Part shown: positions 31,442 to 40,744 of the stretch, in pieces | How positions within the stretch are numbered: position 1 is the first letter of the stretch | Layout: every line of letters begins with the position of its first letter | Assembly (NCBI GenBank): GCA_031458695.1 | Contig: JAVKJW010000008.1 | Coordinates: forward strand, 2,967 to 66,966 | Reading direction: 5' to 3' | From: Candidatus Thermofontivivens primus | Lineage (GTDB): Bacteria > Sysuimicrobiota > Sysuimicrobiia > Sysuimicrobiales > Thermofontiviventaceae | Length of the DNA stretch: 64,000 bases | The notes under the pieces: model-generated | Told to the model about the DNA's origin: nothing | The model's input: only the letters and a program-made list of their open reading frames with translations | The model's database searches: none | Made by a program: the position numbers and the translations under genes

Positions 31442-32278
31442 ATGCTCTTGGCAGCCCAGGCTGGTAGCCTCCTTACGCGTATCCGCGAAACTCGCCCTTT
31501 GGTCCACCACCTTACGAACTTCGTCGCGATGAATGACGTAGCGAACGTCACCCTTGCCACTGGTGCGCTCCCGATCATGGCCCATGCTCCCGAGGAGATG
31601 GAAGAGGTCGTTTCTGCTGCCTCCGTCCTTGTACTCAACCTAGGCACATGGACGCAGGAGAGATGGGACGTGATGCTTCTTGCGGCACGCATCGCCAACA
31701 GGCGTGGGATCCCGGTTGTCCTGGATCCCGTGGGCGCGGGGGCCTCTCGAGTTCGTACGGAGAGTGCACTCAAGCTCCTCCGCGAGAAGCGTGTCACCGT
31801 GGTAAGAGGCAATCGGGGAGAGATCGCCTACCTCACGGGGGCGCTCGCGAGCGTCAGGGGGGTGGAGTCCCTGGGGTCGGACGTCCCTCCCCAGGATTTG
31901 GCCCAAACCCTGGCCCGGGAACATGGGTGCATTGTTGCGGTTACGGGCCCGCGCGACTGGATCAGCGATGGGAAACGCCTCCTCGCCGTGGACAACGGGC
32001 ACCCCCTCCTCCAGAGAATCACCGGTTCCGGGTGTATGGCCACGGCGGCCATCGGCTGTTTTCTCGCTGTCCCCGGAGATCCTCTCATCGGCACCGCCGC
32101 AGCCCTGGCCTATTTCGGGTACGCTGCCGAGCTGGCAGCGAGGGATTCCAAAGGGCCAGGGAGTTTCCGGGTATCTCTGCTTGACCACCTTGCCTTGCTC
32201 GATGCAGCTTCTCTGGAGGCAGGGGCGCGGATCCTGGAGGATTTCGATCCTGGTGGAGGGCCTCAGGGATCCGGGTGA
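31442..32278 (+). CDS. thiM: hydroxyethylthiazole kinase
   Basis: HHLTNFVAMNDVANVTLATGALPIMAHAPEE...VDPVGAGAS...ITGSGCMATAAIGCF is a ThiM-like sequence. Confidence 0.85.
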   Translation: MLLAAQAGSLLTRIRETRPLVHHLTNFVAMNDVANVTLATGALPIMAHAPEEMEEVVSAASVLVLNLGTWTQERWDVMLLAARIANRRGIPVVLDPVGAGASRVRTESALKLLREKRVTVVRGNRGEIAYLTGALASVRGVESLGSDVPPQDLAQTLAREHGCIVAVTGPRDWISDGKRLLAVDNGHPLLQRITGSGCMATAAIGCFLAVPGDPLIGTAAALAYFGYAAELAARDSKGPGSFRVSLLDHLALLDAASLEAGARILEDFDPGGGPQGSG

Positions 32279-34458
32279 GGAAAGCCCGCGAGGACGCCGA
32301 AGGGGGAGAGCAGCGTCTTCGCTGCTTCCAGGACGAGCTCGCTGTATTTCTGCACATCGTAGCTCCAGCCGTCCTGCAGGAGAGCCCACGGCTTGGCCCG
32401 CTCCTCGGGAATCCTGCTGCGGAAGTCGGTGATGACGTACTGTACGGCCTCTCCAGGGTGAAGCCGGACCCCGCGGCGGGCGAGCTGGCGGGCAGCGATG
32501 GCGAGGAGGGTTTCGTGGGTGTAGGACTCCGGGGGTTTGGAGAGCACCTGTTGGATGACGAGGTCCCTCAGCGTGACGTCGCCGTCTCGCAGCCGTGCCA
32601 AGAAGGTTTCCACCACAGCGACCACTTCAGGGAGCCGCTCTTGGAGTTCGTGAAGGGTGCTGGCGGAGGCCAGGACCTCCACCATGCGCTGTTGCGCCTC
32701 CCGCACAATGGGGGGGAGGTCCGAACGCCGGAGCTCAATCCCCCGCACTTTTACAGTCCCGTCCTCGAAGACGCCCACGAAGCGGTTAGGGACCCCCAGG
32801 CGACGACGGATCCTGGACGGGATGAAAGCGATCCAGCGATAACGACCCTCTAGGAGGATGGGAATCCCTGTGGCCTCTGTGATCTCCTGAACCAACGCCT
32901 CCACCTCCTCTGGGCAGCTGCCAGCCTTATGGATCCAGAGGGAATCCACGATGGCATGGAGGAGGCGGAATCCCCGTGACTCGGCGAGTTCTTTCGCCCG
33001 CAGCAACAGCTCCCGGCTGTAGGCAGTAACGGCTTCGTGCGCCTCGATCCTTCCGAACCGGGCGTTCCGGTATCCGAGGTAACCGAAGCACGTCACAAGA
33101 CACCACTTCAGGGCGTTCTGGCGGTGCTCGTAGACTATCCGCTCCTCCCCTGGGGTCTGCCGCATGAGGTGCTTGTAGGCAAGACGTTTCTCAATCAGCG
33201 GCGCGAGCACCTGGGGGATCAATCCCTTCCTCCTCCGGCACACAGAGTACCCAATCTCCGGAACGCGGTGGTCTGGGCAACACGCGCATCCCAGCGTCTC
33301 GGGGGAGATGTTGAACCGCGCCATGATCATGGGGTACATCGAGGCAAAATCCAGCTCAAACACGTCCTCGTAGACGCCGATCGGAGGAAGGTAAACGAGC
33401 CCCCCTTTGTCCGTACGGAGGAGTTCGAGGGCCGACTTGAACTCCTCGGCCTGGCGTTTCCGCCAGGGGATGAGGATCCCCTGGCGGACCGCCGTGTCCA
33501 GCTGCATGGAGGTGATTGCCGTCCCTGTGGTGGTCCGCGCGAGGCGTTGTACTGGGATCTTTGCTAGGCGAGCGACCTCCACCAACCCTTCGAGGCCGCT
33601 CTCCCCCATCAGGAAAGAGTTCACAGTATCGACGTGCAACCGCCCTCTGAAGAGTTGGGCTCCTGCACGATAGACCCACCGGCCGTACGTGTAAAAAGAG
33701 TACCCTCGCCGAGCTAAGGTCGTCCGCTCGCGGTTGAATGGAAGGGGAATCCCAGTCATCCGGCTGAGGCGCTCCAGCCGGGGGATGAGGAAGGAATCCC
33801 CCCACTCCGTCAGGATGATGTCGGGGTCGTACCGGGTGAACAGCGAGCGCAGGCTCTCCAGGAGATCTACGGGCCCGTCCCCATCGAGAACGATGGTCTG
33901 CCCCTCTATCGTTGCCTCCAGGAAACTCCTCCGGCCGTGGGGGGCGATGATCGGGTCTCCCTCCAGCCGGAGGTGAATCATGGTGAGGGGCGGAAGGTGG
34001 TAGGAGAGATCCCAGGGGGAGTCCTCCAGTGCAATGGCTTGGACGGTTCCCTGTTCGTGCTCGATGGCGCAGCGGGCCAAGGGGAAGAGGCCGGACTCGT
34101 AAAAGTAGAGCTGCTCCAGAGGGATGTCCACGTTGAATAGCTCTATCCCTGGGATGTTTGCAACCAAGCGCACCATGGAAGGGAAGTGCGCAGGCGAAGT
34201 TGTCAGCTCGATCACAGGCCGCTCCCTTCCACTGAAGAAGTCGACCCTGCTGGTCGTGCGCAAAGTCACGGGGGCGCGGCATCGCTGGAGAACGGCCTCC
34301 ACCTGGCGGCGTACCCTTGGAGGACCATCGGCATAGCAACGGAGGGAGACAGGGTGGGTGAGGCGGAGGCGGCGGCCTTGCCCGTCTATGAGCCAGAGGA
34401 CCATCCCTCTCTCCCCAGGGTAGGCGTCAAGGATCCACGCGGTGATCTGCTCGCCCAC
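32263..34458 (-). CDS. family-B DNA polymerase (Pol II-like) with degenerate exonuclease motifs
   Basis: Motif A LDFASMYPMIM and motif B KWCLVTCFGYLG are present, and motif C is reduced to AIVDS. Exo I reads HLRLEG (vs SIDIET) and exo II reads WGDSFLIPRL (vs QFDLRML). Start is uncertain: GTG 34458 just before the conserved ITAWILDAY, or ATG 34566/34611. Confidence 0.8.
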   Translation of the reverse strand: MGEQITAWILDAYPGERGMVLWLIDGQGRRLRLTHPVSLRCYADGPPRVRRQVEAVLQRCRAPVTLRTTSRVDFFSGRERPVIELTTSPAHFPSMVRLVANIPGIELFNVDIPLEQLYFYESGLFPLARCAIEHEQGTVQAIALEDSPWDLSYHLPPLTMIHLRLEGDPIIAPHGRRSFLEATIEGQTIVLDGDGPVDLLESLRSLFTRYDPDIILTEWGDSFLIPRLERLSRMTGIPLPFNRERTTLARRGYSFYTYGRWVYRAGAQLFRGRLHVDTVNSFLMGESGLEGLVEVARLAKIPVQRLARTTTGTAITSMQLDTAVRQGILIPWRKRQAEEFKSALELLRTDKGGLVYLPPIGVYEDVFELDFASMYPMIMARFNISPETLGCACCPDHRVPEIGYSVCRRRKGLIPQVLAPLIEKRLAYKHLMRQTPGEERIVYEHRQNALKWCLVTCFGYLGYRNARFGRIEAHEAVTAYSRELLLRAKELAESRGFRLLHAIVDSLWIHKAGSCPEEVEALVQEITEATGIPILLEGRYRWIAFIPSRIRRRLGVPNRFVGVFEDGTVKVRGIELRRSDLPPIVREAQQRMVEVLASASTLHELQERLPEVVAVVETFLARLRDGDVTLRDLVIQQVLSKPPESYTHETLLAIAARQLARRGVRLHPGEAVQYVITDFRSRIPEERAKPWALLQDGWSYDVQKYSELVLEAAKTLLSPFGVLAGFPHPDP

Positions 34459-34714
34459 GATTCCTCTCCAGGGAATCCAGCCTGCGTTCAAGAGATCGCA
34501 CCCGCTTGAGTGTCTCGAGGAGCATGCAAACCAGCATCGTTTCGAAGGGAACTGGGTGGCTGGCATAGGCGGCTTCGGCAGAATGGTGCCGTGCTGCTTC
34601 AAACAGCTCATCCAGGACCTCCTGGTCCTCTCGCCGCAACGCCCTCCGGAACGGCATCCAGCGCTCGATCTCTTCCAGAACGAGGTTGGTCATGGTACGC
34701 AGCGTCCGTCCCAT
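34427..34714 (-). CDS. hypothetical 95-aa protein, middle gene of the SOS operon
   Basis: Sits between the ImuA-like gene (6-nt gap) and polB (overlap). Predicted helical, no family recognised. Confidence 0.55.
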   Translation of the reverse strand: MGRTLRTMTNLVLEEIERWMPFRRALRREDQEVLDELFEAARHHSAEAAYASHPVPFETMLVCMLLETLKRVRSLERRLDSLERNRGRADHRVDP

Positions 34715-34720
34715 CGCACC

Positions 34721-35368
34721 TCACTCCTTTCCTCTTTGGGAGTACCCCCAGACGAATCTCTTCGAGATCCTGCTGGCGTGGTTAGGATGTTCCTGGAGCA
34801 CGAGGTAAGAACCATCGCCTGTTGCCTGAATACGCAAAATCCAAGAGGCCAGGCGGCGCAGCAATGGGAACAAGTGGGCCTCCCGGGATCGTTCCACGGG
34901 GCTCGGGCAGGCGACGAGAAGATGGCATCGGCGTTTGACCAGGCGCTGGAAAGTCCAGAGAATCCCTCTGAAGATACGATGTGCCTCCGGGTTGGGCACA
35001 GCTTCGTCCCCGAACAGGTCCAGGAGGCCGAGGAGGAGGACTGGGCTGGCCTCCCCACAGAGGGCAGGGAGGCGTTTGGTGATTAGGACCTCAAGCTGGT
35101 GTACGGTGAAAGCCCTGGCGATGCTGACGCGAGCCAACCATCGTTCAGGGATCTCCCCCGCTGCCCTCGCCGCGTCGGAGATGATGTAGGGATCAAAGGC
35201 GTTCCCAGCGTCCACGACGATCAGGTGAGAAGCTCGTCCTTGTCCTGGTTGCCTTCTCTCGAGGAATGTGCGGGCGGTAGTCCACATGGCAACGGTCATG
35301 CATGTGTGGTCCCCGCAAAAGAGGACCAGTTCACCATAGCTGAGAGGAAAAAGGTCTAGAAAGTTCAT
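34721..35368 (-). CDS. RecA-fold protein with degenerate P-loop, ImuA/SulA-like (SOS cell-division/mutagenesis protein family)
   Basis: LSYGELVLFCGDHTCMTVAMW...LIVVDAGNAFDP has RecA/ImuA-like topology, but Walker A lacks Lys. First gene downstream of the LexA-box promoter. Confidence 0.55.
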   Translation of the reverse strand: MNFLDLFPLSYGELVLFCGDHTCMTVAMWTTARTFLERRQPGQGRASHLIVVDAGNAFDPYIISDAARAAGEIPERWLARVSIARAFTVHQLEVLITKRLPALCGEASPVLLLGLLDLFGDEAVPNPEAHRIFRGILWTFQRLVKRRCHLLVACPSPVERSREAHLFPLLRRLASWILRIQATGDGSYLVLQEHPNHASRISKRFVWGYSQRGKE

Positions 35369-35389
35369 AGGCGCACCCGGTCTGAGGTT

Positions 35390-35418
35390 ATTATATCGAA
35401 CTTATGTTCGCATGTCAA
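35390..35418 (-). promoter_or_regulatory. sigma-A promoter TTGACA-N17-TATAAT (minus strand) with embedded LexA box
   Basis: On the minus strand, TTGACA is at 35418-35413 and TATAAT at 35395-35390, with exactly 17 nt between. The -10 ends ~21 nt upstream of the ATG at 35368. Confidence 0.75.
35397..35410. promoter_or_regulatory. LexA operator (Cheo box) CGAACTTATGTTCG
   Basis: Perfect match to the Gram-positive SOS box consensus CGAAC-N4-GTTCG. It lies inside the spacer of the promoter of the minus-strand operon. Confidence 0.8.
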
Positions 35419-35505: not shown

Positions 35506-36705
35506 ATGGCGCTTCCACGCCTCCGGCGTTTTGACGCATATCCTGTTCGCCTTAACGGCCGGGACTTCATCTGCCTGCGCGACCTGGAAGGTGTGCTCGA
35601 TGAGCCAGTCCTCCTCTCGCCGCAGGCGTTTCTGGTTGCTACCCTCCTGGACGGGCAACGAGACGTGCTCGATATCCAGGCGGAGTATGCCCGGCGGTCG
35701 GGCGGAGATCTCCTCCTTTCCTGGGATCTCCAGAGGATCGTGGAAGAGCTGGACCGATACGGCCTTCTAGAAACTCAGACGTTCACAGAGCGCCGCAAGC
35801 AGTTGGAGGAGTCCTTCCGGAACGCACCGATCCGGTCTCCCTATCACGCTGGCAAGGCCTACCCATCGGATCCCGACGTCCTGCGCACACAGCTCTCAGG
35901 GTATTTCGCAACGGTAGATCCCCGGGAGCTCAACGGTCTCAAGCCGCGCGGAATTATCGTGCCGCACATCGACTTCGCCCGCGGCGGTTGGTGCTATGCT
36001 TGGGGATACGCTACCCTTCATCCGTATCAGCGGAGGACATACATTGTGCTTGGGGTTGCCCATTCCGGGCCACCCGTGCCGTTCGTGCTCACGAGGAAAC
36101 CTTTCCAGACGCCCCTCGGCGTGATGGAGGTGGATCAGAACCTCGCGGATGCACTCCAGAGGGAAGCGGGCGACCTTACAGAGTACGAGGCGATCCACCG
36201 CACCGAACACTCGGTGGAGTTCCAAGTTCTCTTCCTTCAGCACATGGCGGGAAGCCGTCCCATACGTATCCTTCCGCTCCTGTGTGCAAACCTAGAAGAA
36301 TGGGCAAAGGAAGGTTCCCCACGCGACGTGGAGGCGATCGAGCGGGTGATCCAGGTGCTCCGTGACCTAGTGCTGCAGGCAAGGGGAGAAATTGGGGTGA
36401 TCGCGAGCGTGGACTTCAGCCATGTCGGCCCGCGCTTTGGAGACGTCGAACCTGTCGGGCCCGCTCTTGCTTCGCGGACCTCGCTGGATGATCGGGCGGC
36501 GCTAGAGGCCATTGTCCGCGGCGATGCTGAGGAGTTCTGGAGGACGATCACTAGGAGAGGGAACCCAAACCGCATCGACGCCCTCTCTGCTGTGTACGTG
36601 GCGTTGCGACTTCTCGAACCTGTGCAAGGGAAGCTCCTCCGCTATGGCCAGGCTCAGGATCCCGCGGGCGGCCTTGTCTCCTTCGCGAGCCTCGCCCTCC
36701 TGTAG
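35506..36705 (+). CDS. MEMO1-family (AmmeMemoRadiSam system protein B-like) enzyme with N-terminal PqqD-like RRE domain
   Basis: C-terminal 290 aa carry GIIVPHIDFARGGWCYAWGY...SVDFSHVGPRFGD. The N-terminal ~105 aa (LSPQAFLVATLLDGQRDVLDIQAEYARRSG..LSWDLQRIVEELDRYGLLE) follow the PqqD/RRE pattern. ATG follows GATAGGGGGAA. Confidence 0.75.
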   Translation: MALPRLRRFDAYPVRLNGRDFICLRDLEGVLDEPVLLSPQAFLVATLLDGQRDVLDIQAEYARRSGGDLLLSWDLQRIVEELDRYGLLETQTFTERRKQLEESFRNAPIRSPYHAGKAYPSDPDVLRTQLSGYFATVDPRELNGLKPRGIIVPHIDFARGGWCYAWGYATLHPYQRRTYIVLGVAHSGPPVPFVLTRKPFQTPLGVMEVDQNLADALQREAGDLTEYEAIHRTEHSVEFQVLFLQHMAGSRPIRILPLLCANLEEWAKEGSPRDVEAIERVIQVLRDLVLQARGEIGVIASVDFSHVGPRFGDVEPVGPALASRTSLDDRAALEAIVRGDAEEFWRTITRRGNPNRIDALSAVYVALRLLEPVQGKLLRYGQAQDPAGGLVSFASLALL

Positions 36706-36773: not shown

Positions 36774-37259
36774 TCAGAATGTAGCAAAGGGGACGATTCC
36801 TGTCTCGCCGATAGCATAGATCACCAGAGGGCCCTGGCGCGCACCGTCCATGCCCGGTGATCCTGGAGGCATTCCCGGCAAGGCGATACCTTTGATCTTC
36901 GGCTTCGTCTGGAGCAGCTTTGTAATCGCTGCGGCAGGGACGTGCCCTTCTACGAAATAGTTTCCCATGATCAGGGTGTGGCAGCTGCGCATACTCTGTG
37001 GAATTCCCCATCGATCCTTAATCTTCTCAGGATCCTGCACCGGCATCAACCTGATGCCGAAGCCCGCGGACGTGAGGTAATCCGCGTAGCTCCTGCAGCA
37101 CCCTCAGGTGGGGGAGAAGTAGATGTCCCCCACGATAGGTTTCCCCGGTTGCGCAGCACGTGCACTCTCCAGGAGCTGTGGGGACAGGGCTGCAAGCATT
37201 GCGGTGATCACTCCGACCAGCAGGGCTGCTTGCACAGCGCGCTTCTGAGCGGGACGCAT
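36774..37259 (-). CDS. DUF411/CopG-like secreted metal-binding protein with in-frame TGA at the conserved CxCC motif (candidate selenoprotein)
   Basis: Manual translation of the minus strand gives MRPAQKRAVQAALLVGVITAMLAALSPQLLESARAAQPGKPIVGDIYFSPT[TGA]GCCRSYADYLTSAGFGIRLMPVQDPEKIKDRWGIPQSMRSCHTLIMGNYFVEGHVPAAAITKLLQTKPKIKGIALPGMPPGSPGM... A GAGGAGG RBS precedes ATG 37259. The TGA at 37104-37106 replaces the first Cys of CxCC. Confidence 0.6.
37062..37092 (-). promoter_or_regulatory. candidate SECIS-like hairpin 14-42 nt downstream of the in-frame UGA
   Basis: mRNA GCUACGCGGAUUACCUCACGUCCGCGGGC folds as a 6-bp stem CGCGGA/UCCGCG (extendable to ~9 bp with a bulge) with a 10-nt loop. It does not match the E. 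coli fdhF SECIS loop. Confidence 0.25.
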
Positions 37260-37286
37260 GCACGTACCTCCTCGCAAGTGATCTCA

Positions 37287-37308
37287 CAAGAATCCCCCAG
37301 GATTCTTG
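37287..37308. other. perfect inverted repeat CAAGAATCC-ccca-GGATTCTTG (9-bp stem)
   Basis: Lies 28 nt upstream of the DUF411 gene start, in the intergenic region after the PepSY-like gene. No U-tract follows, so it is not a canonical terminator. Confidence 0.4.
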
Positions 37309-37449
37309 CGGGGGCCTCGACACGAGATGGGGCGGCCCTTGGGCCTCGGCCCAGGGCGCGCCCCTTCCCAAGGTCATTCGGAGTACCCCGGCAAAACTCC
37401 TTCGACTCCTGCCGGGGCTCACCTGAAAAATCGGGGATACTTGGACGCA

Positions 37450-38169
37450 CTAGTCAAGCTCCTTCTCCCGGATAAAGTCCCCGTGCCAGTAGTGGTACCA
37501 CACCGCGCCTGTGTAGCCGTTGACGCTGAGCATGCCTACAATCTTCCCCCCACGGGCCACGTGGATCGTATAGTACCCGTAAAAGGTGTGGACATCCTCC
37601 GCGGTCGCCCCGGGCATGACCGTTGCAAGGTAGCGGTTGGCGATCTGCTTCGCCTGTTCCTTCGTCACGGGCATGGCTGAGGGCGGAGTGATCCGTGTAG
37701 GCGCTTGGTACCCCCACCGTGGGCCCCAGCCAAAGCCACCCATCATACCGTAGCCACCTCGCCAAGCAACCATATGACCGTATTTCGTGTTCCACATCAT
37801 ATTCGGGCCAGGCTCGGGGTAGACAGCACCGGTGAATCGATCGACGAGTAGCTCAAACGCGCCGATGCCGGTGCTTTTCTCCTTCACGACGACGTAGAAA
37901 TTCCGAGTGAACTCCATGATCTCTTCCAATATGAGGTCAGGGTTGCCATAGGAGGCAACAGCCTGCCGGGCAATCTCCACGGCGCGTTCCAGCGAAATCG
38001 GCTGGGCATTCGGGGGAACTGCTCCCCAAAAGCCAAAGTGGGGACACGCCCCAGGACCGTATCCCCCCATCATCCATGGGCCAGGCCAATACGGCTGGGC
38101 AAATACGGGGATTGCAGAAACGAGTACCCCTGCGATGGCAAGGATCCAGGCGAACTTCTTCACCCTCAT
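37450..38169 (-). CDS. secreted PepSY-like protein with Gly/Met/Trp-rich repeats
   Basis: Signal peptide MRVKKFAWILAIAGVLVSAIPVFA, followed by ISLERAVEIARQAV (PepSY-like) and repeats such as MMGGYGPG and GGYGMMGGFGWGPRWG. Confidence 0.55.
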   Translation of the reverse strand: MRVKKFAWILAIAGVLVSAIPVFAQPYWPGPWMMGGYGPGACPHFGFWGAVPPNAQPISLERAVEIARQAVASYGNPDLILEEIMEFTRNFYVVVKEKSTGIGAFELLVDRFTGAVYPEPGPNMMWNTKYGHMVAWRGGYGMMGGFGWGPRWGYQAPTRITPPSAMPVTKEQAKQIANRYLATVMPGATAEDVHTFYGYYTIHVARGGKIVGMLSVNGYTGAVWYHYWHGDFIREKELD

Positions 38170-38477
38170 CACCCCTTCCTTGGTAGTCTTATCTCTGAGG
38201 TCATCCCCCTCCACTACTGATCCTACGAGAGGGATATGAAGAATCTTTGAAGGGAAAATGGGAAGATTGTGAAAGGGCTTCAGGTGGTGTCTGAGAGAGG
38301 GAAGCGGCGAAATGCCTGCTACCACCTACACCGAACCAGTACACAAGAAGGTGGGCGTCCTATCCTCGGAAATCTTCCCCAAAAATCGGGTCTTCGCCCG
38401 ATGGTGAGCGTGTCCATTGTGGAGTATCTTTTCTTAGGAGATCCTTACGAATCCTGATAGGGTATCCTTAGAAAGCG

Positions 38478-38738
38478 ATGCGGCGGCTAGCGGAGCTCAA
38501 ACCTGGAGAGAGGGGACGCATCCTGGAGGTTATCGCAATGGCAGAATCCCTCGCCGCCCTGGGGTTCATCCCGGGGGCCACAGTACGAGTCCGCCAACGG
38601 GTCCGCGGGGGTCCTCTCCTTGTGGATCTTGGTGAATCGATGTACGCCCTCGGTCGAGAGATAGCTGCCATGGTTGCGGTAGAACCAGAGATGGACTGTC
38701 TCGGTCCAAGAAGAGGAACCAGTCAGAGAGGGAGATGA
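38478..38738 (+). CDS. feoA: FeoA-family protein
   Basis: LAELKPGERGRILEVIAMAESLAALGFIPGATVRV matches the FeoA SH3-like pattern. It lies directly upstream of feoB with an ATGA overlap. Confidence 0.8.
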   Translation: MRRLAELKPGERGRILEVIAMAESLAALGFIPGATVRVRQRVRGGPLLVDLGESMYALGREIAAMVAVEPEMDCLGPRRGTSQRGR

Positions 38739-40744
38739 GGCATTCCTGTCACTCTCCCACCACAACGATCCCCTTTTTGAGGTCTGCCCAGGACCTTCCT
38801 GTTGTTGCTCTCGTGGGAAACCCGAACTCGGGGAAGTCCACACTTTTCAATGCGCTCACCGGGTCATGTGCCGAAACGGCGCACTATCCGGGAACCACAG
38901 TGGAGATCCTCACAGGTCTTGTCCCGCTCGGGGATCGACAGATCATGCTGGTAGACCTGCCTGGCTTGTATACCCTGCGGGGAGGAGGGGAGGAGCGGCA
39001 AGTCGTGCGCGAGGTGCTGCGTTCTGGTGTGGACGCAGTAGTTGCTGTGGTGGACGCGACGAACCTGGCGCGGCATCTCTACCTTGTTTTAGAACTGCGG
39101 TCCCTCGGTCTCCCCCTGGTCGTGGCCTTGAACATGATTGACCTCCTGACGTCGCAGGAAGGAAGGGTTGACGTCAAGGAGCTCGAGCGCCTCCTCGGAG
39201 TCCCTGTCATTCCTACCATTGCCACCACAGGGCAGGGAGTAGACAAGGTCGTCCAGAAGATCCTCTCCATCACTTCCAGCCCTCCTCCTGCAGTGGCCTT
39301 CCTGGGTCCGGAGCTAGATGATTCGATCGAGAAGTTGGGCGATGCTCTTGAGGGATATCCGCTCCCTCCAGGGCTTTCCCGTCTTTCTGTCGCACTGTTG
39401 CTCTTGGAAGGAGATCCAGAGGTCACCTCGTTCTTCTCCAGCCGCCCGGGAATGGAGGGCATACTCCAGCAGGTCGTGGAGACGCAGGAGCGCCTAGAGG
39501 AAACCTTAGGGATGCCCTTGGCCGTTGCAATAGCTGCAGCCCGCCACAGGGTCGCCGATCACATTGCGAAGCAGGTGGTGAAACCTGGCGTTCGTCGGGA
39601 GAGCTGGCTATGGTCCTTGGCGATCTCTCCCCGCGCGGGCGTCTTCTTCCTCCTGGGTGTCCTGGCGATCTTGTTCACCGTCTTGTTCTGGGGTGGAAAC
39701 TTCCTTTCTACGCTTCTCAGCGCAGGCTGGGCAATGGCTGTCTCCCCGTTCCTCCAAACGGCTGCGCGGGCGATGTTCGGTGAAGGAGTGATCGGCAGGA
39801 CGGTCCTGTGGGGAGTCGACGCGGGCCTTCTTGCAGCTCTTTCGGTAGGGATTCCCTATGTCCTCACTTTTTACATCCTCCTGGCGTTCCTGGAGGATAC
39901 CGGATTCCTCAACGCCATGGCTTTCCTTGCGGACCGACTCATGAGGAGTTTCGGTCTCCATGGTCGGGCCATCATTCCTCTCGTGGCCGGGGCAGGGTGC
40001 AACGTGCCCGCCATCATTGGCACGCGCGTGCTGCCGACCATGCGAGAGCGGACCATCGCCTCCACCCTGATCACCCTTGTTCCGTGCAGCGCGAGAACGG
40101 CTGTGATCTTGGGCGCCGTTGCCCTCTCCCTGGGTATCCTCCCTGCACTTGCGCTCTACCTCCTCGTCCTAGGGGTGATCGTCCTCGTAGGGTGGGGTCT
40201 TGGGAAGGTATTGCCTGGACAAGCCTCGCCTCTCGTCATGGAGGTGTTCCCTTTTCGTAGGCCGGTGGTCAGGGTCTTGTGGAGAAAGACATGGGCTCGG
40301 TTCAGGGAATTCCTCATCGTGGCCCTCCCCTTGGTGATGGTGGGGAGTATTGTCCTGGGTGGTCTGTACGAGAGTGGTCTCATCTGGAAGCTGAGCAGGC
40401 CTCTCGCTCCCGTCGTAGAAGGCTGGCTAGGGCTCCCTGCGGTGGCTGGGTTGACCCTCGTCTTTGCCGTGCTCCGCAAGGAGCTGGCACTCCAGCTCCT
40501 CGTAGCCCTGGCCATCGTGCGCTACGGGCCAGGAGCGGAGAGCCTCCGGGCTTTTTTGAATGGGCGCCAGATTTTTGTCTATGCCCTCGTGAACACCCTG
40601 TACATCCCGTGCATCGCCACGATTGCAGTTCTTGCAAGAGAGCTGGGGTGGAGACGCGCCCTCCTGATCTCCACCTTTACCGTGGCCCTGGCGGTGGCTA
40701 TCGGGGGCGTCGCCAATAGGCTGATCCTGTGGTGGGGAGCTTAG
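38735..40744 (+). CDS. feoB: ferrous iron transporter FeoB
   Basis: N-terminal GTPase GNPNSGKSTLFNALTG plus a ~450-aa polytopic membrane domain. Confidence 0.9.
   Translation: MRHSCHSPTTTIPFLRSAQDLPVVALVGNPNSGKSTLFNALTGSCAETAHYPGTTVEILTGLVPLGDRQIMLVDLPGLYTLRGGGEERQVVREVLRSGVDAVVAVVDATNLARHLYLVLELRSLGLPLVVALNMIDLLTSQEGRVDVKELERLLGVPVIPTIATTGQGVDKVVQKILSITSSPPPAVAFLGPELDDSIEKLGDALEGYPLPPGLSRLSVALLLLEGDPEVTSFFSSRPGMEGILQQVVETQERLEETLGMPLAVAIAAARHRVADHIAKQVVKPGVRRESWLWSLAISPRAGVFFLLGVLAILFTVLFWGGNFLSTLLSAGWAMAVSPFLQTAARAMFGEGVIGRTVLWGVDAGLLAALSVGIPYVLTFYILLAFLEDTGFLNAMAFLADRLMRSFGLHGRAIIPLVAGAGCNVPAIIGTRVLPTMRERTIASTLITLVPCSARTAVILGAVALSLGILPALALYLLVLGVIVLVGWGLGKVLPGQASPLVMEVFPFRRPVVRVLWRKTWARFREFLIVALPLVMVGSIVLGGLYESGLIWKLSRPLAPVVEGWLGLPAVAGLTLVFAVLRKELALQLLVALAIVRYGPGAESLRAFLNGRQIFVYALVNTLYIPCIATIAVLARELGWRRALLISTFTVALAVAIGGVANRLILWWGA

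What the first reader, a model, noticed from the sequence alone, without database searches (positions are those of the whole stretch)
35506..36705. PqqD-like RiPP-recognition element fused to a MEMO1/LigB-superfamily enzyme
The N-terminal ~105 aa match the PqqD/RRE pattern (..LLDG.R.V.DI...........DL..IVEEL...GLLE). The remainder is a MEMO1 / AmmeMemoRadiSam-protein-B-like domain. RREs normally deliver peptide substrates to radical-SAM, YcaO or lanthipeptide enzymes. A fusion to a MEMO-type (extradiol-dioxygenase-fold) enzyme suggests a peptide-modifying role for this enigmatic family. No obvious precursor-peptide ORF was spotted nearby. The gene shares its upstream region with the LexA box.
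Basis: inference. Interest (0 to 1): 0.6.

Follow-up and report, generated by a model that had tools for sequence, protein, structure and literature searches.

The report
PqqD-like peptide-binding domain fused to Memo
This gene encodes a Memo-family protein with a small N-terminal domain of the kind that grips peptides in natural-product pathways; the fusion is real, widespread and already noted in a 2025 paper, but nothing nearby suggests a natural-product pathway, and its substrate is unknown.

Summary
ORF 35506-36705 (+) encodes 399 aa. Residues 110-388 are a clear Memo domain (PF01875 E=2e-40; TIGR04336 E=4e-32; TM 0.82 to human MEMO1).

Residues 1-90 are a PqqD/RRE-like domain:
- The AlphaFold2 model (pLDDT 94-95) has the defining βββ-ααα order.
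- The only geometrically good PDB matches are RREs (PqqD, TbiB1, TglI).
- Profile-profile alignment to bona fide PqqD gives P=3.6e-6, against a best of 0.0085 in 60 shuffles.
- Single-sequence HMM hits stay below curated cut-offs.

The RiPP reading is not supported. Across 88 loci and more than 15 phyla, no neighbour family occurs in over 15% of loci. I found no radical SAM, AMMECR1, YcaO or Lan neighbour and no conserved small ORF.

The third metal ligand of MEMO1 (Cys244) is Ser or Ala throughout the family.

The LexA box lies inside the promoter of the divergent PolB operon, not this gene's.

The fusion is already published: RRE-Finder 2025 has the model RREFam044 "Memo_RRE".

Most likely this is a stand-alone enzyme or binding protein that uses the RRE fold to hold a peptide or protein segment encoded elsewhere. 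This function is inferred, not shown.

The parts
35506..36705 (+). Complete gene for the 399-aa RRE-Memo fusion protein (stop codon included).
   Evidence: ORF list. Full-length homologues at 99-100% coverage. AF2 model with pLDDT 95.5 and pTM 0.92.
35506..35775 (+). Residues 1-90: PqqD-like RRE-fold domain. Strands b1 10-16, b2 19-25, b3 35-37; helices a1 39-47, a2 54-64, a3 72-84. Near-invariant residues are P4, R7, D26, D49, G50, G67, L82, D83 and L88.
   Evidence: AF2 secondary structure. Foldseek matches to PqqD, TbiB1 and TglI. hhalign against PqqD at P=3.6e-6, with controls. Per-member HMM hits to PqqD-type families. Conservation over 258 sequences.
35776..35832 (+). Residues 91-109: linker helix a4 (91-106) joining the RRE domain to the Memo domain.
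   Evidence: AF2 helix H91-106 at pLDDT >90. The Memo profiles start at residue 110-112.
35833..36702 (+). Residues 110-399: Memo domain (class III extradiol-dioxygenase fold). H154 and H186 correspond to MEMO1 H49 and H81, and H235 to H192. Ser305 occupies the position of the metal ligand Cys244. Family-invariant motifs are PHIDFxRGG, HRxEHSxEFQ and DxSHVGPRFGD.
   Evidence: PF01875 E=2e-40. TIGR04336. Profile alignment to MEMO1 7kq8. Foldseek 7m8h E=1.9e-17, TMt 0.82. Residue census at the Cys244 position. Invariant columns.

Best explanation
The gene encodes a stand-alone two-domain protein. It belongs to a large family found in many, mostly uncultured, bacterial phyla.

Shown:
- The N-terminal ~90 residues adopt the PqqD/RRE fold (three strands followed by three helices) and are remotely homologous to PqqD.
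- A linker helix joins this domain to a Memo domain. The Memo domain keeps two of the three MEMO1 metal ligands (His154, His186) and a strongly conserved pocket.

Inferred:
- As in characterised RREs, the N-domain captures a short linear peptide segment as an extra strand between b3 and a3. It holds that segment next to the Memo pocket, where it is bound or chemically modified.
- The gene has no conserved neighbours, and the polar residues of the N-domain are almost invariant across phyla. The ligand is therefore probably one conserved peptide, or a protein tail, encoded elsewhere in the genome. It is probably not a variable RiPP precursor in a biosynthetic gene cluster.
- The chemistry is unknown. 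Canonical 2-His-1-carboxylate (or 2-His-1-Cys) metal chemistry cannot be assumed, because the third ligand position is Ser or Ala.
For: RRE fold and homology:
- Confident AF2 models of the whole protein and of the N-domain alone both give the bbb-aaa order. This order is the strict RRE criterion used in PMC12710340.
- All geometrically sound Foldseek PDB matches are RRE or RRE-like domains: PqqD 5sxy prob 0.97, TbiB1 with bound leader 5v1u prob 0.91, TglI 8hi7 prob 0.77, and the PKMT winged-helix domain.
- hhalign of a 258-sequence N-domain alignment against 20 bona fide PF05402 PqqDs gives Prob 87.5% and P=3.6e-6 over b3-a3, in register. The reversed template scores 13.4 and 60 column shuffles reach at most 18.6, against 35.4 for the native alignment.
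- Recurrent sub-threshold hits go almost only to RRE families: TIGR03859 in 8 of 24 members, NF002535 in 4, ScmD in 4, ApyI in 1, geo_PqqD in 1.

Fusion and family:
- The N-domain profile finds 997 50%-identity clusters at E<=1e-10. The best 150 hits are all at the N-terminus of ~400-aa proteins or are shorter fragments; of the ten with odd lengths or domain positions that I scanned, six carry Memo and none another enzyme domain.
- At least 575 GTDB species genomes carry the full-length protein.
- pTM 0.92 for the two-domain model suggests a fixed domain arrangement.
- The Memo pocket residues are invariant.
- An independent publication lists RRE-Memo fusions and a Memo_RRE model.

Peptide theme:
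- Human MEMO1 was first identified among proteins bound to the ERBB2 receptor (abstract of PMC7694686, listed).
Against: - No peptide ligand was identified. There is no conserved small ORF within 2 kb in 88 loci.
- The N-domain fails the curated cut-offs of PF05402 and TIGR03859.
- No Foldseek hit reaches E<=1e-3.
- Model coordinates could not be inspected. It is therefore not shown that the b3/a3 groove is exposed or faces the Memo pocket.
- The near-invariant polar residues could equally form a domain interface.
- The Cys244-equivalent ligand is Ser or Ala. MEMO1 C244S does not bind iron (PMC11081632), so the Memo domain may be metal-free or non-catalytic.
Confidence: 0.45

Rival explanations
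1. It is a classical RiPP maturase. The RRE binds the leader of a precursor peptide that the Memo domain modifies to make a secreted natural product. The precursor would be encoded at a distance or be too short or divergent to detect.
For: RRE fold and PqqD homology. RRE-Finder treats Memo_RRE as a precision-mode class. About 60% of the RREs in that study are fused to, or encoded next to, a well-characterised RiPP-related protein.
Against: - In 80 diverse loci no neighbour family is shared by more than 15%.
- A Pfam census of 114 directly flanking ORFs gave 134 different families. None of those found in two or more ORFs was Radical_SAM, YcaO, Lan or a leader peptidase.
- No conserved small ORF lies within 2 kb.
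- The gene sits among housekeeping genes.
- The family is found, in a single architecture, across more than 15 phyla. That pattern is more typical of core metabolism than of a natural-product cluster.
Confidence: 0.1
2. The N-domain is a vestigial or re-purposed RRE fold that no longer binds peptides. It would act as an oligomerisation, lid or regulatory module. The Memo domain would act on a small molecule. From my own knowledge, Burroughs et al. 2019 (J Biol Chem) proposed nucleotide-base or isoprenoid substrates for Memo-clade proteins; I could not read that paper here.
For: No peptide partner or RiPP context was found. The invariant charged residues R7, D26, D49 and D83 and the confident inter-domain geometry (pTM 0.92) fit a conserved interface. 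The Memo superfamily is otherwise made of small-molecule dioxygenases.
Against: The whole RRE architecture is retained at high predicted confidence. It is conserved in about a thousand 50%-identity clusters without decay. Every characterised protein of this fold found here binds peptides.
Confidence: 0.3
3. The protein is the B component of a canonical AmmeMemoRadiSam system, as its database name says. It would work with an AMMECR1 protein and a radical SAM enzyme.
For: TIGR04336 scores 111 bits against a cut-off of 26. Sources name the homologues 'AmmeMemoRadiSam system protein B'.
Against: - No AMMECR1 or radical SAM family appears among neighbours shared across 80 loci, nor among those families found in two or more of 114 flanking ORFs.
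- None is annotated in the eight distinct neighbourhoods with precomputed Pfam.
- Motif scans of the window found no convincing CxxxCxxC or GCIG gene (a weak test).
- The MEMO1-family equivalog NF001987 scores 105 bits against a cut-off of 295.
Confidence: 0.1
4. The N-domain is a DNA-binding winged helix, and the protein is an SOS-linked regulator or repair factor. The lead is the LexA box upstream.
For: A LexA box lies in the shared intergenic region. DNA-repair genes occur near some homologues: LexA and MutS in L003/L010, SRAP in L008, Ku/LigD in L013, RmuC in Rokubacteria.
Against: - The box lies within the spacer and -10 region of a 12/12 sigma-70 promoter on the opposite strand, which drives the PolB operon.
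- No such box was found in the five loci of other homologues held at that point. The upstream regions of L003 and L010 were also read directly, and only the lexA gene has a box.
- The strand and helix order is bbb-aaa, not the order of canonical DNA-binding winged-helix domains.
- All fold matches are peptide binders.
Confidence: 0.03

Closest known systems
PqqD and other RiPP recognition elements (Pfam PF05402, TIGR03859; structures 5sxy, 3g2b, TbiB1 5v1u)
   Same: The bbb-aaa fold is the same and the size is about 90 aa. The LLDG turn after helix 1 and the hydrophobic xLxxxGLL end of helix 3 are shared. Remote homology is detectable by profile-profile comparison.
   Different: It falls below the curated HMM cut-offs. 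The b2-b3 loop appears longer by eye. It is fused to Memo rather than encoded next to a radical SAM, YcaO or lasso enzyme. It has no adjacent precursor.
RRE-Finder class RREFam044 'Memo_RRE' (Bregman et al., mSystems 2025, PMC12710340)
   Same: The architecture is the same: an RRE fused to a Memo-like PF01875 protein. The paper calls this a high-confidence AlphaFold-predicted fusion 'unprecedented in RiPPs'.
   Different: The HMM itself could not be run here, so membership is inferred from the architecture. The paper gives no context, distribution or function. Here the family is shown to have no conserved gene context and to lack the third metal ligand.
Human MEMO1 (PDB 3bcz, 7kq8)
   Same: The Memo fold matches (TMt 0.82, E=1.9e-17). 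His49/His81/His192 equivalents are conserved as H154/H186/H235.
   Different: Identity is only about 21%. MEMO1 has no N-terminal RRE. The metal ligand Cys244 is Ser305 here and Ser or Ala across the family. The family-specific invariant motif is PHIDFxRGG, where MEMO1 has PHAGYTYCG.
AmmeMemoRadiSam system protein B (TIGR04336)
   Same: The Memo domain passes this model's cut-off.
   Different: There is an extra 109-residue N-terminal region. The AMMECR1 and radical SAM partner genes are not nearby in any locus examined.
Class III extradiol dioxygenases (LigB, DesB, 2-aminophenol 1,6-dioxygenase)
   Same: The fold is shared (Foldseek E about 1e-7, TM 0.5), as are the two His ligands.
   Different: The carboxylate third ligand is absent, with Ser or Ala at that position. 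No aromatic-degradation context was found.

Membership tests
RiPP recognition element (RRE) / PqqD-like fold | Three-stranded sheet followed by three helices (bbb-aaa order), about 80-110 aa | tested here: met
   AF2: E10-16, E19-25, E35-37, H39-47, H54-64, H72-84. pLDDT is 94-95 both in the full-length model and in the isolated domain. The criterion is as stated in PMC12710340.
RiPP recognition element (RRE) / PqqD-like fold | Sequence match to PF05402 or TIGR03859 above the curated cut-off | tested here: not met
   The window protein has no PF05402 hit. TIGR03859 gives E=0.08 and 12.8 bits against a cut-off of 46. Among family members, PF05402 hits 3 of 24 (best E=0.0012) and TIGR03859 hits 8 of 24 (best E=4e-4).
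RiPP recognition element (RRE) / PqqD-like fold | Remote homology to bona fide PqqD by profile-profile comparison | tested here: met
   hhalign gives Prob 87.5% and P=3.6e-6 over columns 33-82 against 34-84. The reversed and 60 shuffled templates score at most 18.6, against 35.4.
RiPP recognition element (RRE) / PqqD-like fold | Structural similarity to solved RREs | tested here: inconclusive
RiPP recognition element (RRE) / PqqD-like fold | Binds a leader or recognition peptide in the b3/a3 groove | not testable with these tools
   No coordinates or complex prediction were available, and no candidate peptide is known.
RiPP biosynthetic gene cluster | Adjacent precursor peptide gene plus tailoring, protease or export genes | tested here: not met
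   No conserved small ORF within 2 kb in 88 loci. No neighbour family in more than 15% of 80 loci. The census of 114 flanking ORFs shows no RiPP family among those found in two or more ORFs.
RRE-Finder RREFam044 Memo_RRE | Score of at least 20 bits against that HMM | not testable with these tools
   The HMM is not available here. The architecture matches the published description.
Memo (PF01875) | Match above the Pfam gathering score, and the Memo fold | tested here: met
   139 bits against a cut-off of 27. Foldseek to MEMO1 gives E=1.9e-17 and TMt 0.82.
Memo (PF01875) | MEMO1 metal site His49/His81/Cys244 | tested here: not met
   H154 and H186 are conserved. The Cys244 position is Ser in 116 and Ala in 45 of 161 members, and is Ser305 in the window protein. 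The ligand assignment comes from PMC11081632.
AmmeMemoRadiSam system (TIGR04335, TIGR04336, TIGR04337) | The B protein matches TIGR04336 | tested here: met
   111 bits against a cut-off of 26, residues 110-388.
AmmeMemoRadiSam system (TIGR04335, TIGR04336, TIGR04337) | AMMECR1 and radical SAM partners encoded alongside | tested here: not met
   Absent from the annotated neighbourhoods. Absent among the neighbour clusters annotated and among families found in two or more flanking ORFs. Genome-wide absence was not tested.
Class III extradiol dioxygenase (LigB type) | 2-His-1-carboxylate iron site | tested here: not met
   The position aligned to the Glu/Cys ligand is Ser or Ala. The correspondence of MEMO1 C244 to LigB E242 comes from PMC11081632.

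The most novel reading that the evidence does not exclude
RRE-Memo would be a housekeeping, peptide- or protein-directed enzyme, not a natural-product enzyme. Its RRE domain would recognise one conserved peptide or protein tail encoded elsewhere in the genome. That would give the first direct experimental handle on the long-unknown biochemical function of the Memo family. It would also show that RRE domains work outside RiPP biosynthesis. The recurrent placement next to Lon and M20 peptidase genes in some lineages hints at a link to protein or peptide turnover.
Probability: 0.3. Interest if true: 0.7.

Novelty: new member of a known kind. Interest (0 to 1): 0.4.

Why it matters
The primary molecular function of MEMO1 is still described as unknown (PMC11081632). 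A bacterial Memo clade permanently fused to a peptide-recognition domain argues that Memo-type pockets act on, or hold, peptide segments. It also gives a practical route to finding the substrate: use the N-domain as bait.

The family is also a large, clean example of an RRE with no RiPP gene context. That matters for genome mining, because these hits would be false leads for natural-product discovery. It also bears on annotation, because the name 'AmmeMemoRadiSam system protein B' appears to be over-propagated to this family.

The fusion itself is already in the literature. The added value here is the context, the distribution and the missing metal ligand, not the discovery of the fusion.

Tried and rejected
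1. A profile of the N-domain searched against PDB sequences gave nothing meaningful. The best hits were a phage DNA stabilisation protein (E=0.05) and Fur.
2. The first hhalign runs, against 3 and then 20 PqqD sequences with a shallow query alignment, were weak (Prob 27% and 48%). The result became convincing only with a 258-sequence query alignment plus controls.
4. I looked for the N-domain in other architectures. The only odd case, P0130 (986 aa, TPR), keeps the start of the Memo domain and then diverges. It looks like a chimera or frameshift.
5. SOS regulation of this gene was rejected. The LexA box lies within the opposite-strand promoter. No box was found upstream of homologues outside this genus.
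6. Apparently conserved small ORFs just downstream of the gene turned out to be antisense translations of its conserved 3' end. All other small-ORF clusters were lineage-specific alternative-frame artefacts, apart from one 79-aa convergent helical protein in one lineage.
7. Motif scans of the window for radical SAM, SPASM and AMMECR1 signatures hit only unlikely frames.
8. Burroughs et al. 2019 (PMC6664185) could not be read. Statements about it rest on my own knowledge.
9. The search for related loci with the N-domain alignment alone failed because it had no conserved stretch. The full-length alignment was used instead.
Full report
**Observation**

Homologues begin at the same MxLPxLR N-terminus, so the start codon is right.

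Residues 110-388 are an unambiguous Memo domain:
- Pfam PF01875 gives E=2e-40.
- NCBIfam TIGR04336 "AmmeMemoRadiSam system protein B" gives E=4.4e-32 and starts at profile position 1.
- A family profile matches human MEMO1 at E=2.5e-23.
- An AlphaFold2 model (pLDDT 95.5, pTM 0.92) superposes on MEMO1 with TM 0.82 (E=1.9e-17). It then matches aminophenol, DOPA and LigB-type extradiol dioxygenases.

Residues 1-109 are therefore an addition to the canonical Memo protein.

**Is the N-terminal region an RRE?**

Single-sequence searches alone would say no. There is no Pfam hit. TIGR03859 PqqD reaches only E=0.08 and 12.8 bits, against a cut-off of 46. A profile of the domain finds nothing meaningful among PDB sequences.

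Four further lines of evidence agree that it is.

1. *Topology.* The AF2 model of the domain, in the full-length protein and alone (pLDDT 94.2), has strands 10-16, 19-25 and 35-37 followed by helices 39-47, 54-64 and 72-84. This is the βββ-ααα order that Bregman et al. use as the strict definition of an RRE (PMC12710340). A further helix (91-106) links it to Memo.

2. *Fold matches.* In a Foldseek search of the PDB, the only geometrically sound matches are RRE or RRE-like domains:
   - PqqD 5sxy: prob 0.97, TM 0.51/0.57, rmsd 3.8 Å over 92 columns.
   - The lasso-peptide RRE TbiB1 with its leader, 5v1u: prob 0.91.
   - TglI 8hi7: prob 0.77.
   - The winged-helix domain of PKMT1.

   The E-values are weak (0.08-0.8), and no hit reaches 1e-3. 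The nominal top hit, 8cwt, has TM 0.23 and rmsd 13.8 Å and is spurious.

3. *Profile-profile comparison.* I built an alignment of 20 bona fide PqqD proteins, all annotated PF05402.
   - The 24-sequence N-domain alignment gave P=1.8e-4 against it.
   - A 258-sequence alignment gave Prob 87.5% and P=3.6e-6. It aligned β3 to α3 in register, residues 33-82 against PqqD 34-84.
   - With the template reversed, the score fell from 35.4 to 13.4. Across 60 column shuffles the maximum was 18.6 and the minimum P was 0.0085.

4. *Family-wide sub-threshold hits.* Scanning 24 family members individually, these hits go almost exclusively to RRE families:

| Model | Members hit (of 24) | Best E-value |
|---|---|---|
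| TIGR03859 PqqD | 8 | 4e-4 |
| NF002535 PqqD | 4 | 0.0033 |
| ScmD (PqqD-related) | 4 | 0.0093 |
| ApyI | 1 | 0.0098 |
| GeoRSP PqqD | 1 | 0.17 |
| PF05402 | 3 | 0.0012 |

I conclude that the N-domain is a divergent member of the PqqD/RRE fold. Peptide binding itself was not, and could not be, tested.

**The family**

- The full-length protein has 719 or more homologues of about 400 aa covering 99-100% of the query. The closest is a 99%-identical protein from an "Armatimonadota" MAG.
- A profile of the N-domain alone finds 1,799 50%-identity clusters at E≤1e-3 and 997 at E≤1e-10. The best 150 are all at the N-terminus of ~400-aa proteins or are shorter fragments. Of the ten with odd lengths or domain positions that I scanned, six carry Memo and none another enzyme domain. 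The single outlier, P0130, looks like a chimera.
All matches are full-length.
- The carriers span Sysuimicrobiota/Armatimonadota-like thermophiles, Hydrogenedentota, Rokubacteria/Methylomirabilota, Nitrospirota, Nitrospinota, Thermodesulfobacteriota, Planctomycetota, Omnitrophota, Spirochaetota, Verrucomicrobiota, Acidobacteriota, Elusimicrobiota, Poribacteria, Sumerlaeota and Binatia. Essentially all of the best 80 are MAGs.
- Within the N-domain, conservation over 258 sequences is: P4, R7 and D26 at 100%; G50 at 99%; L82 at 97%; G67 at 96%; D83 and L88 at 95%; D49 at 93%.

**Genomic context**

This is where the RiPP interpretation fails.

In the window the neighbours are:
- ThiW and ThiM;
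- a divergent operon of a RadA-like protein, DUF8156 and PolB;
- DUF411;
- a PepSY-like protein;
- FeoAB.

Only an 87%-identical relative shares the upstream synteny. A 64% relative sits between a solute-binding protein gene and tig-clpP-clpX-lon. Other homologues have unrelated neighbours.

Systematic tests gave the same picture.
- I clustered all ORFs within ±6 kb of 80 diverse loci. No neighbour family occurs in more than 15% of loci.
- The recurrent neighbours are lineage-specific:
  - Lon protease directly upstream on the same strand in five Syntrophia-like loci.
  - An M20 peptidase directly upstream in six Rokubacteria-type loci.
  - An FMN reductase in five deltaproteobacterial loci.
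- A Pfam census of 114 directly flanking ORFs returned 134 different families. The commonest was Lon, with four members. No Radical_SAM, AMMECR1, YcaO or lanthipeptide family was among those found in two or more ORFs.
- Clustering of 18-100-aa ORFs within ±2 kb of 88 loci found no conserved precursor-like peptide.

The protein therefore passes the TIGR04336 threshold. However, it lacks the neighbouring partners that define the AmmeMemoRadiSam system.

**The Memo pocket**

Alignment to MEMO1 shows His154 = His49, His186 = His81 and His235 = His192.

MEMO1 Cys244 is the third Fe/Cu ligand. It corresponds to the Glu ligand of LigB, DesB and aminophenol dioxygenase, and its C244S mutant does not bind iron (PMC11081632). 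In the window protein this position is Ser305. Among 161 family members it is Ser in 116 and Ala in 45, and never Cys, Glu, Asp or His.

The family has its own invariant residues around the pocket: PHIDFxRGG, HRxEHSxEFQ and DxSHVGPRFGD. The pocket is therefore under strong constraint. A canonical 2-His-1-carboxylate or 2-His-1-Cys metal centre, and hence extradiol dioxygenase chemistry, cannot be assumed.

**The LexA box**

CGAACTTATGTTCG at 35397-35410 is real and is the only exact match in the window. It is conserved in the 87% relative as CGAACATTTGTTCG.

It lies inside the spacer and -10 region of a perfect (12/12) sigma-70 promoter on the minus strand, running 35418→35390. That places it about 20-50 nt upstream of the 215-aa gene that starts the RadA-like/DUF8156/PolB operon. 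No such box was found upstream of other homologues. In the loci where lexA is a near neighbour, only lexA has a box. The box belongs to the neighbouring operon.

**Most likely mechanism**

Shown: a PqqD-fold domain joined by a helix to a conserved Memo pocket, in one fixed architecture across many phyla.

Inferred: the N-domain captures a linear peptide segment in the manner of characterised RREs, as an extra strand on β3 packed against α3. It presents neighbouring residues to the Memo pocket for binding or modification.

The gene has no conserved context and the polar residues of the N-domain are nearly invariant. I therefore think the ligand is a single conserved peptide or protein tail encoded elsewhere, not a variable RiPP precursor (confidence about 0.45).

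The main rival is that the RRE fold has been re-purposed as a structural or regulatory module on a small-molecule enzyme (0.3). A classical RiPP role (0.1), a canonical AmmeMemoRadiSam role (0.1) and DNA binding (0.03) are less likely.

**Prior knowledge and novelty**

The fusion has been published. Bregman et al. (mSystems 2025, PMC12710340) list "Memo-like proteins (PF01875)" among high-confidence AlphaFold-predicted RRE fusions "unprecedented in RiPPs". Their Table S1 includes a precision-mode model, RREFam044 Memo_RRE, with 72% true positives and a cut-off of 20 bits. No other paper in the searchable library links PqqD or RREs with Memo.

The window gene is therefore a new member of a known, uncharacterised kind. 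This analysis adds:
- the size and breadth of the family;
- the lack of any RiPP or AmmeMemoRadiSam context;
- the missing third metal ligand;
- the reassignment of the LexA box.

**Verdict**

| Item | Verdict |
|---|---|
| Observation | Confirmed |
| Interest | Moderate (0.4) |

The open question is what Memo does. This fusion makes that question more testable, but the fusion is not a new discovery, and no substrate or chemistry can yet be named.

Noticed in passing
window 32263-35418 (minus strand): A LexA-box-controlled operon. It encodes a 215-aa weakly RadA/Rad51-like protein (34721-35368), a 95-aa DUF8156 protein (34427-34714) and a 782-aa family-B DNA polymerase of archaeal type (32263-34611; NF004416, 434 bits). 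A perfect TTGACA-17-TATAAT promoter (35418->35390) has the LexA box CGAACTTATGTTCG (35397-35410) inside it. The arrangement is conserved in an 87% relative (L012). It resembles an SOS-inducible ImuA-like plus PolB translesion cassette in a bacterium.
   Followed up: partly
loci L027, L028, L035, L051, L073 (directly upstream); L013, L047, L063, L083 (within 5 kb): Lon protease is recurrently close to the RRE-Memo gene in at least four or five lineages. In Syntrophia-like genomes it ends 20-190 nt upstream on the same strand. In Rokubacteria-type loci (L037, L052, L054, L068, L080, L090) an M20 peptidase ends 12-29 nt upstream. This may hint at a link to protein or peptide turnover, but it could be chance.
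   Followed up: partly
window 35506-36705 and homologues P0001-P0120: The database name 'AmmeMemoRadiSam system protein B' given to this family looks over-propagated. The TIGR04336 cut-off (26 bits) is passed, but no AMMECR1 or radical SAM partner was found near any of the 88 loci examined.
   Followed up: yes
window 36774-40744: There is a metal-related cluster downstream: DUF411 (36774-37049, minus strand), a PepSY-like protein (37450-38325, minus strand), FeoA (38478-38738) and FeoB (38735-40744). It is not conserved next to homologues elsewhere, so it is probably unrelated to the Memo gene.
   Followed up: partly
L003 7090-7105 and L010 7130-7150: The lexA genes near the RRE-Memo homologues in these loci carry a variant box upstream of lexA itself (CAAACAGATGTTCG and CAAACAGGTGTTCG). 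Nothing comparable lies upstream of the Memo gene.
   Followed up: yes
L008 5763-6458, L009 6847-7542: An SRAP (SOS-response-associated peptidase, PF02586) gene starts 12 nt downstream of the RRE-Memo gene on the same strand in this lineage.
   Followed up: no
L027, L028, L035, L051, L066, L073 (20-230 nt downstream, opposite strand): A conserved 79-aa predicted helical protein (MAQKKLSEILK...) is encoded convergently just downstream of RRE-Memo in the Syntrophia-like lineage. It does not look like a RiPP precursor.
   Followed up: no
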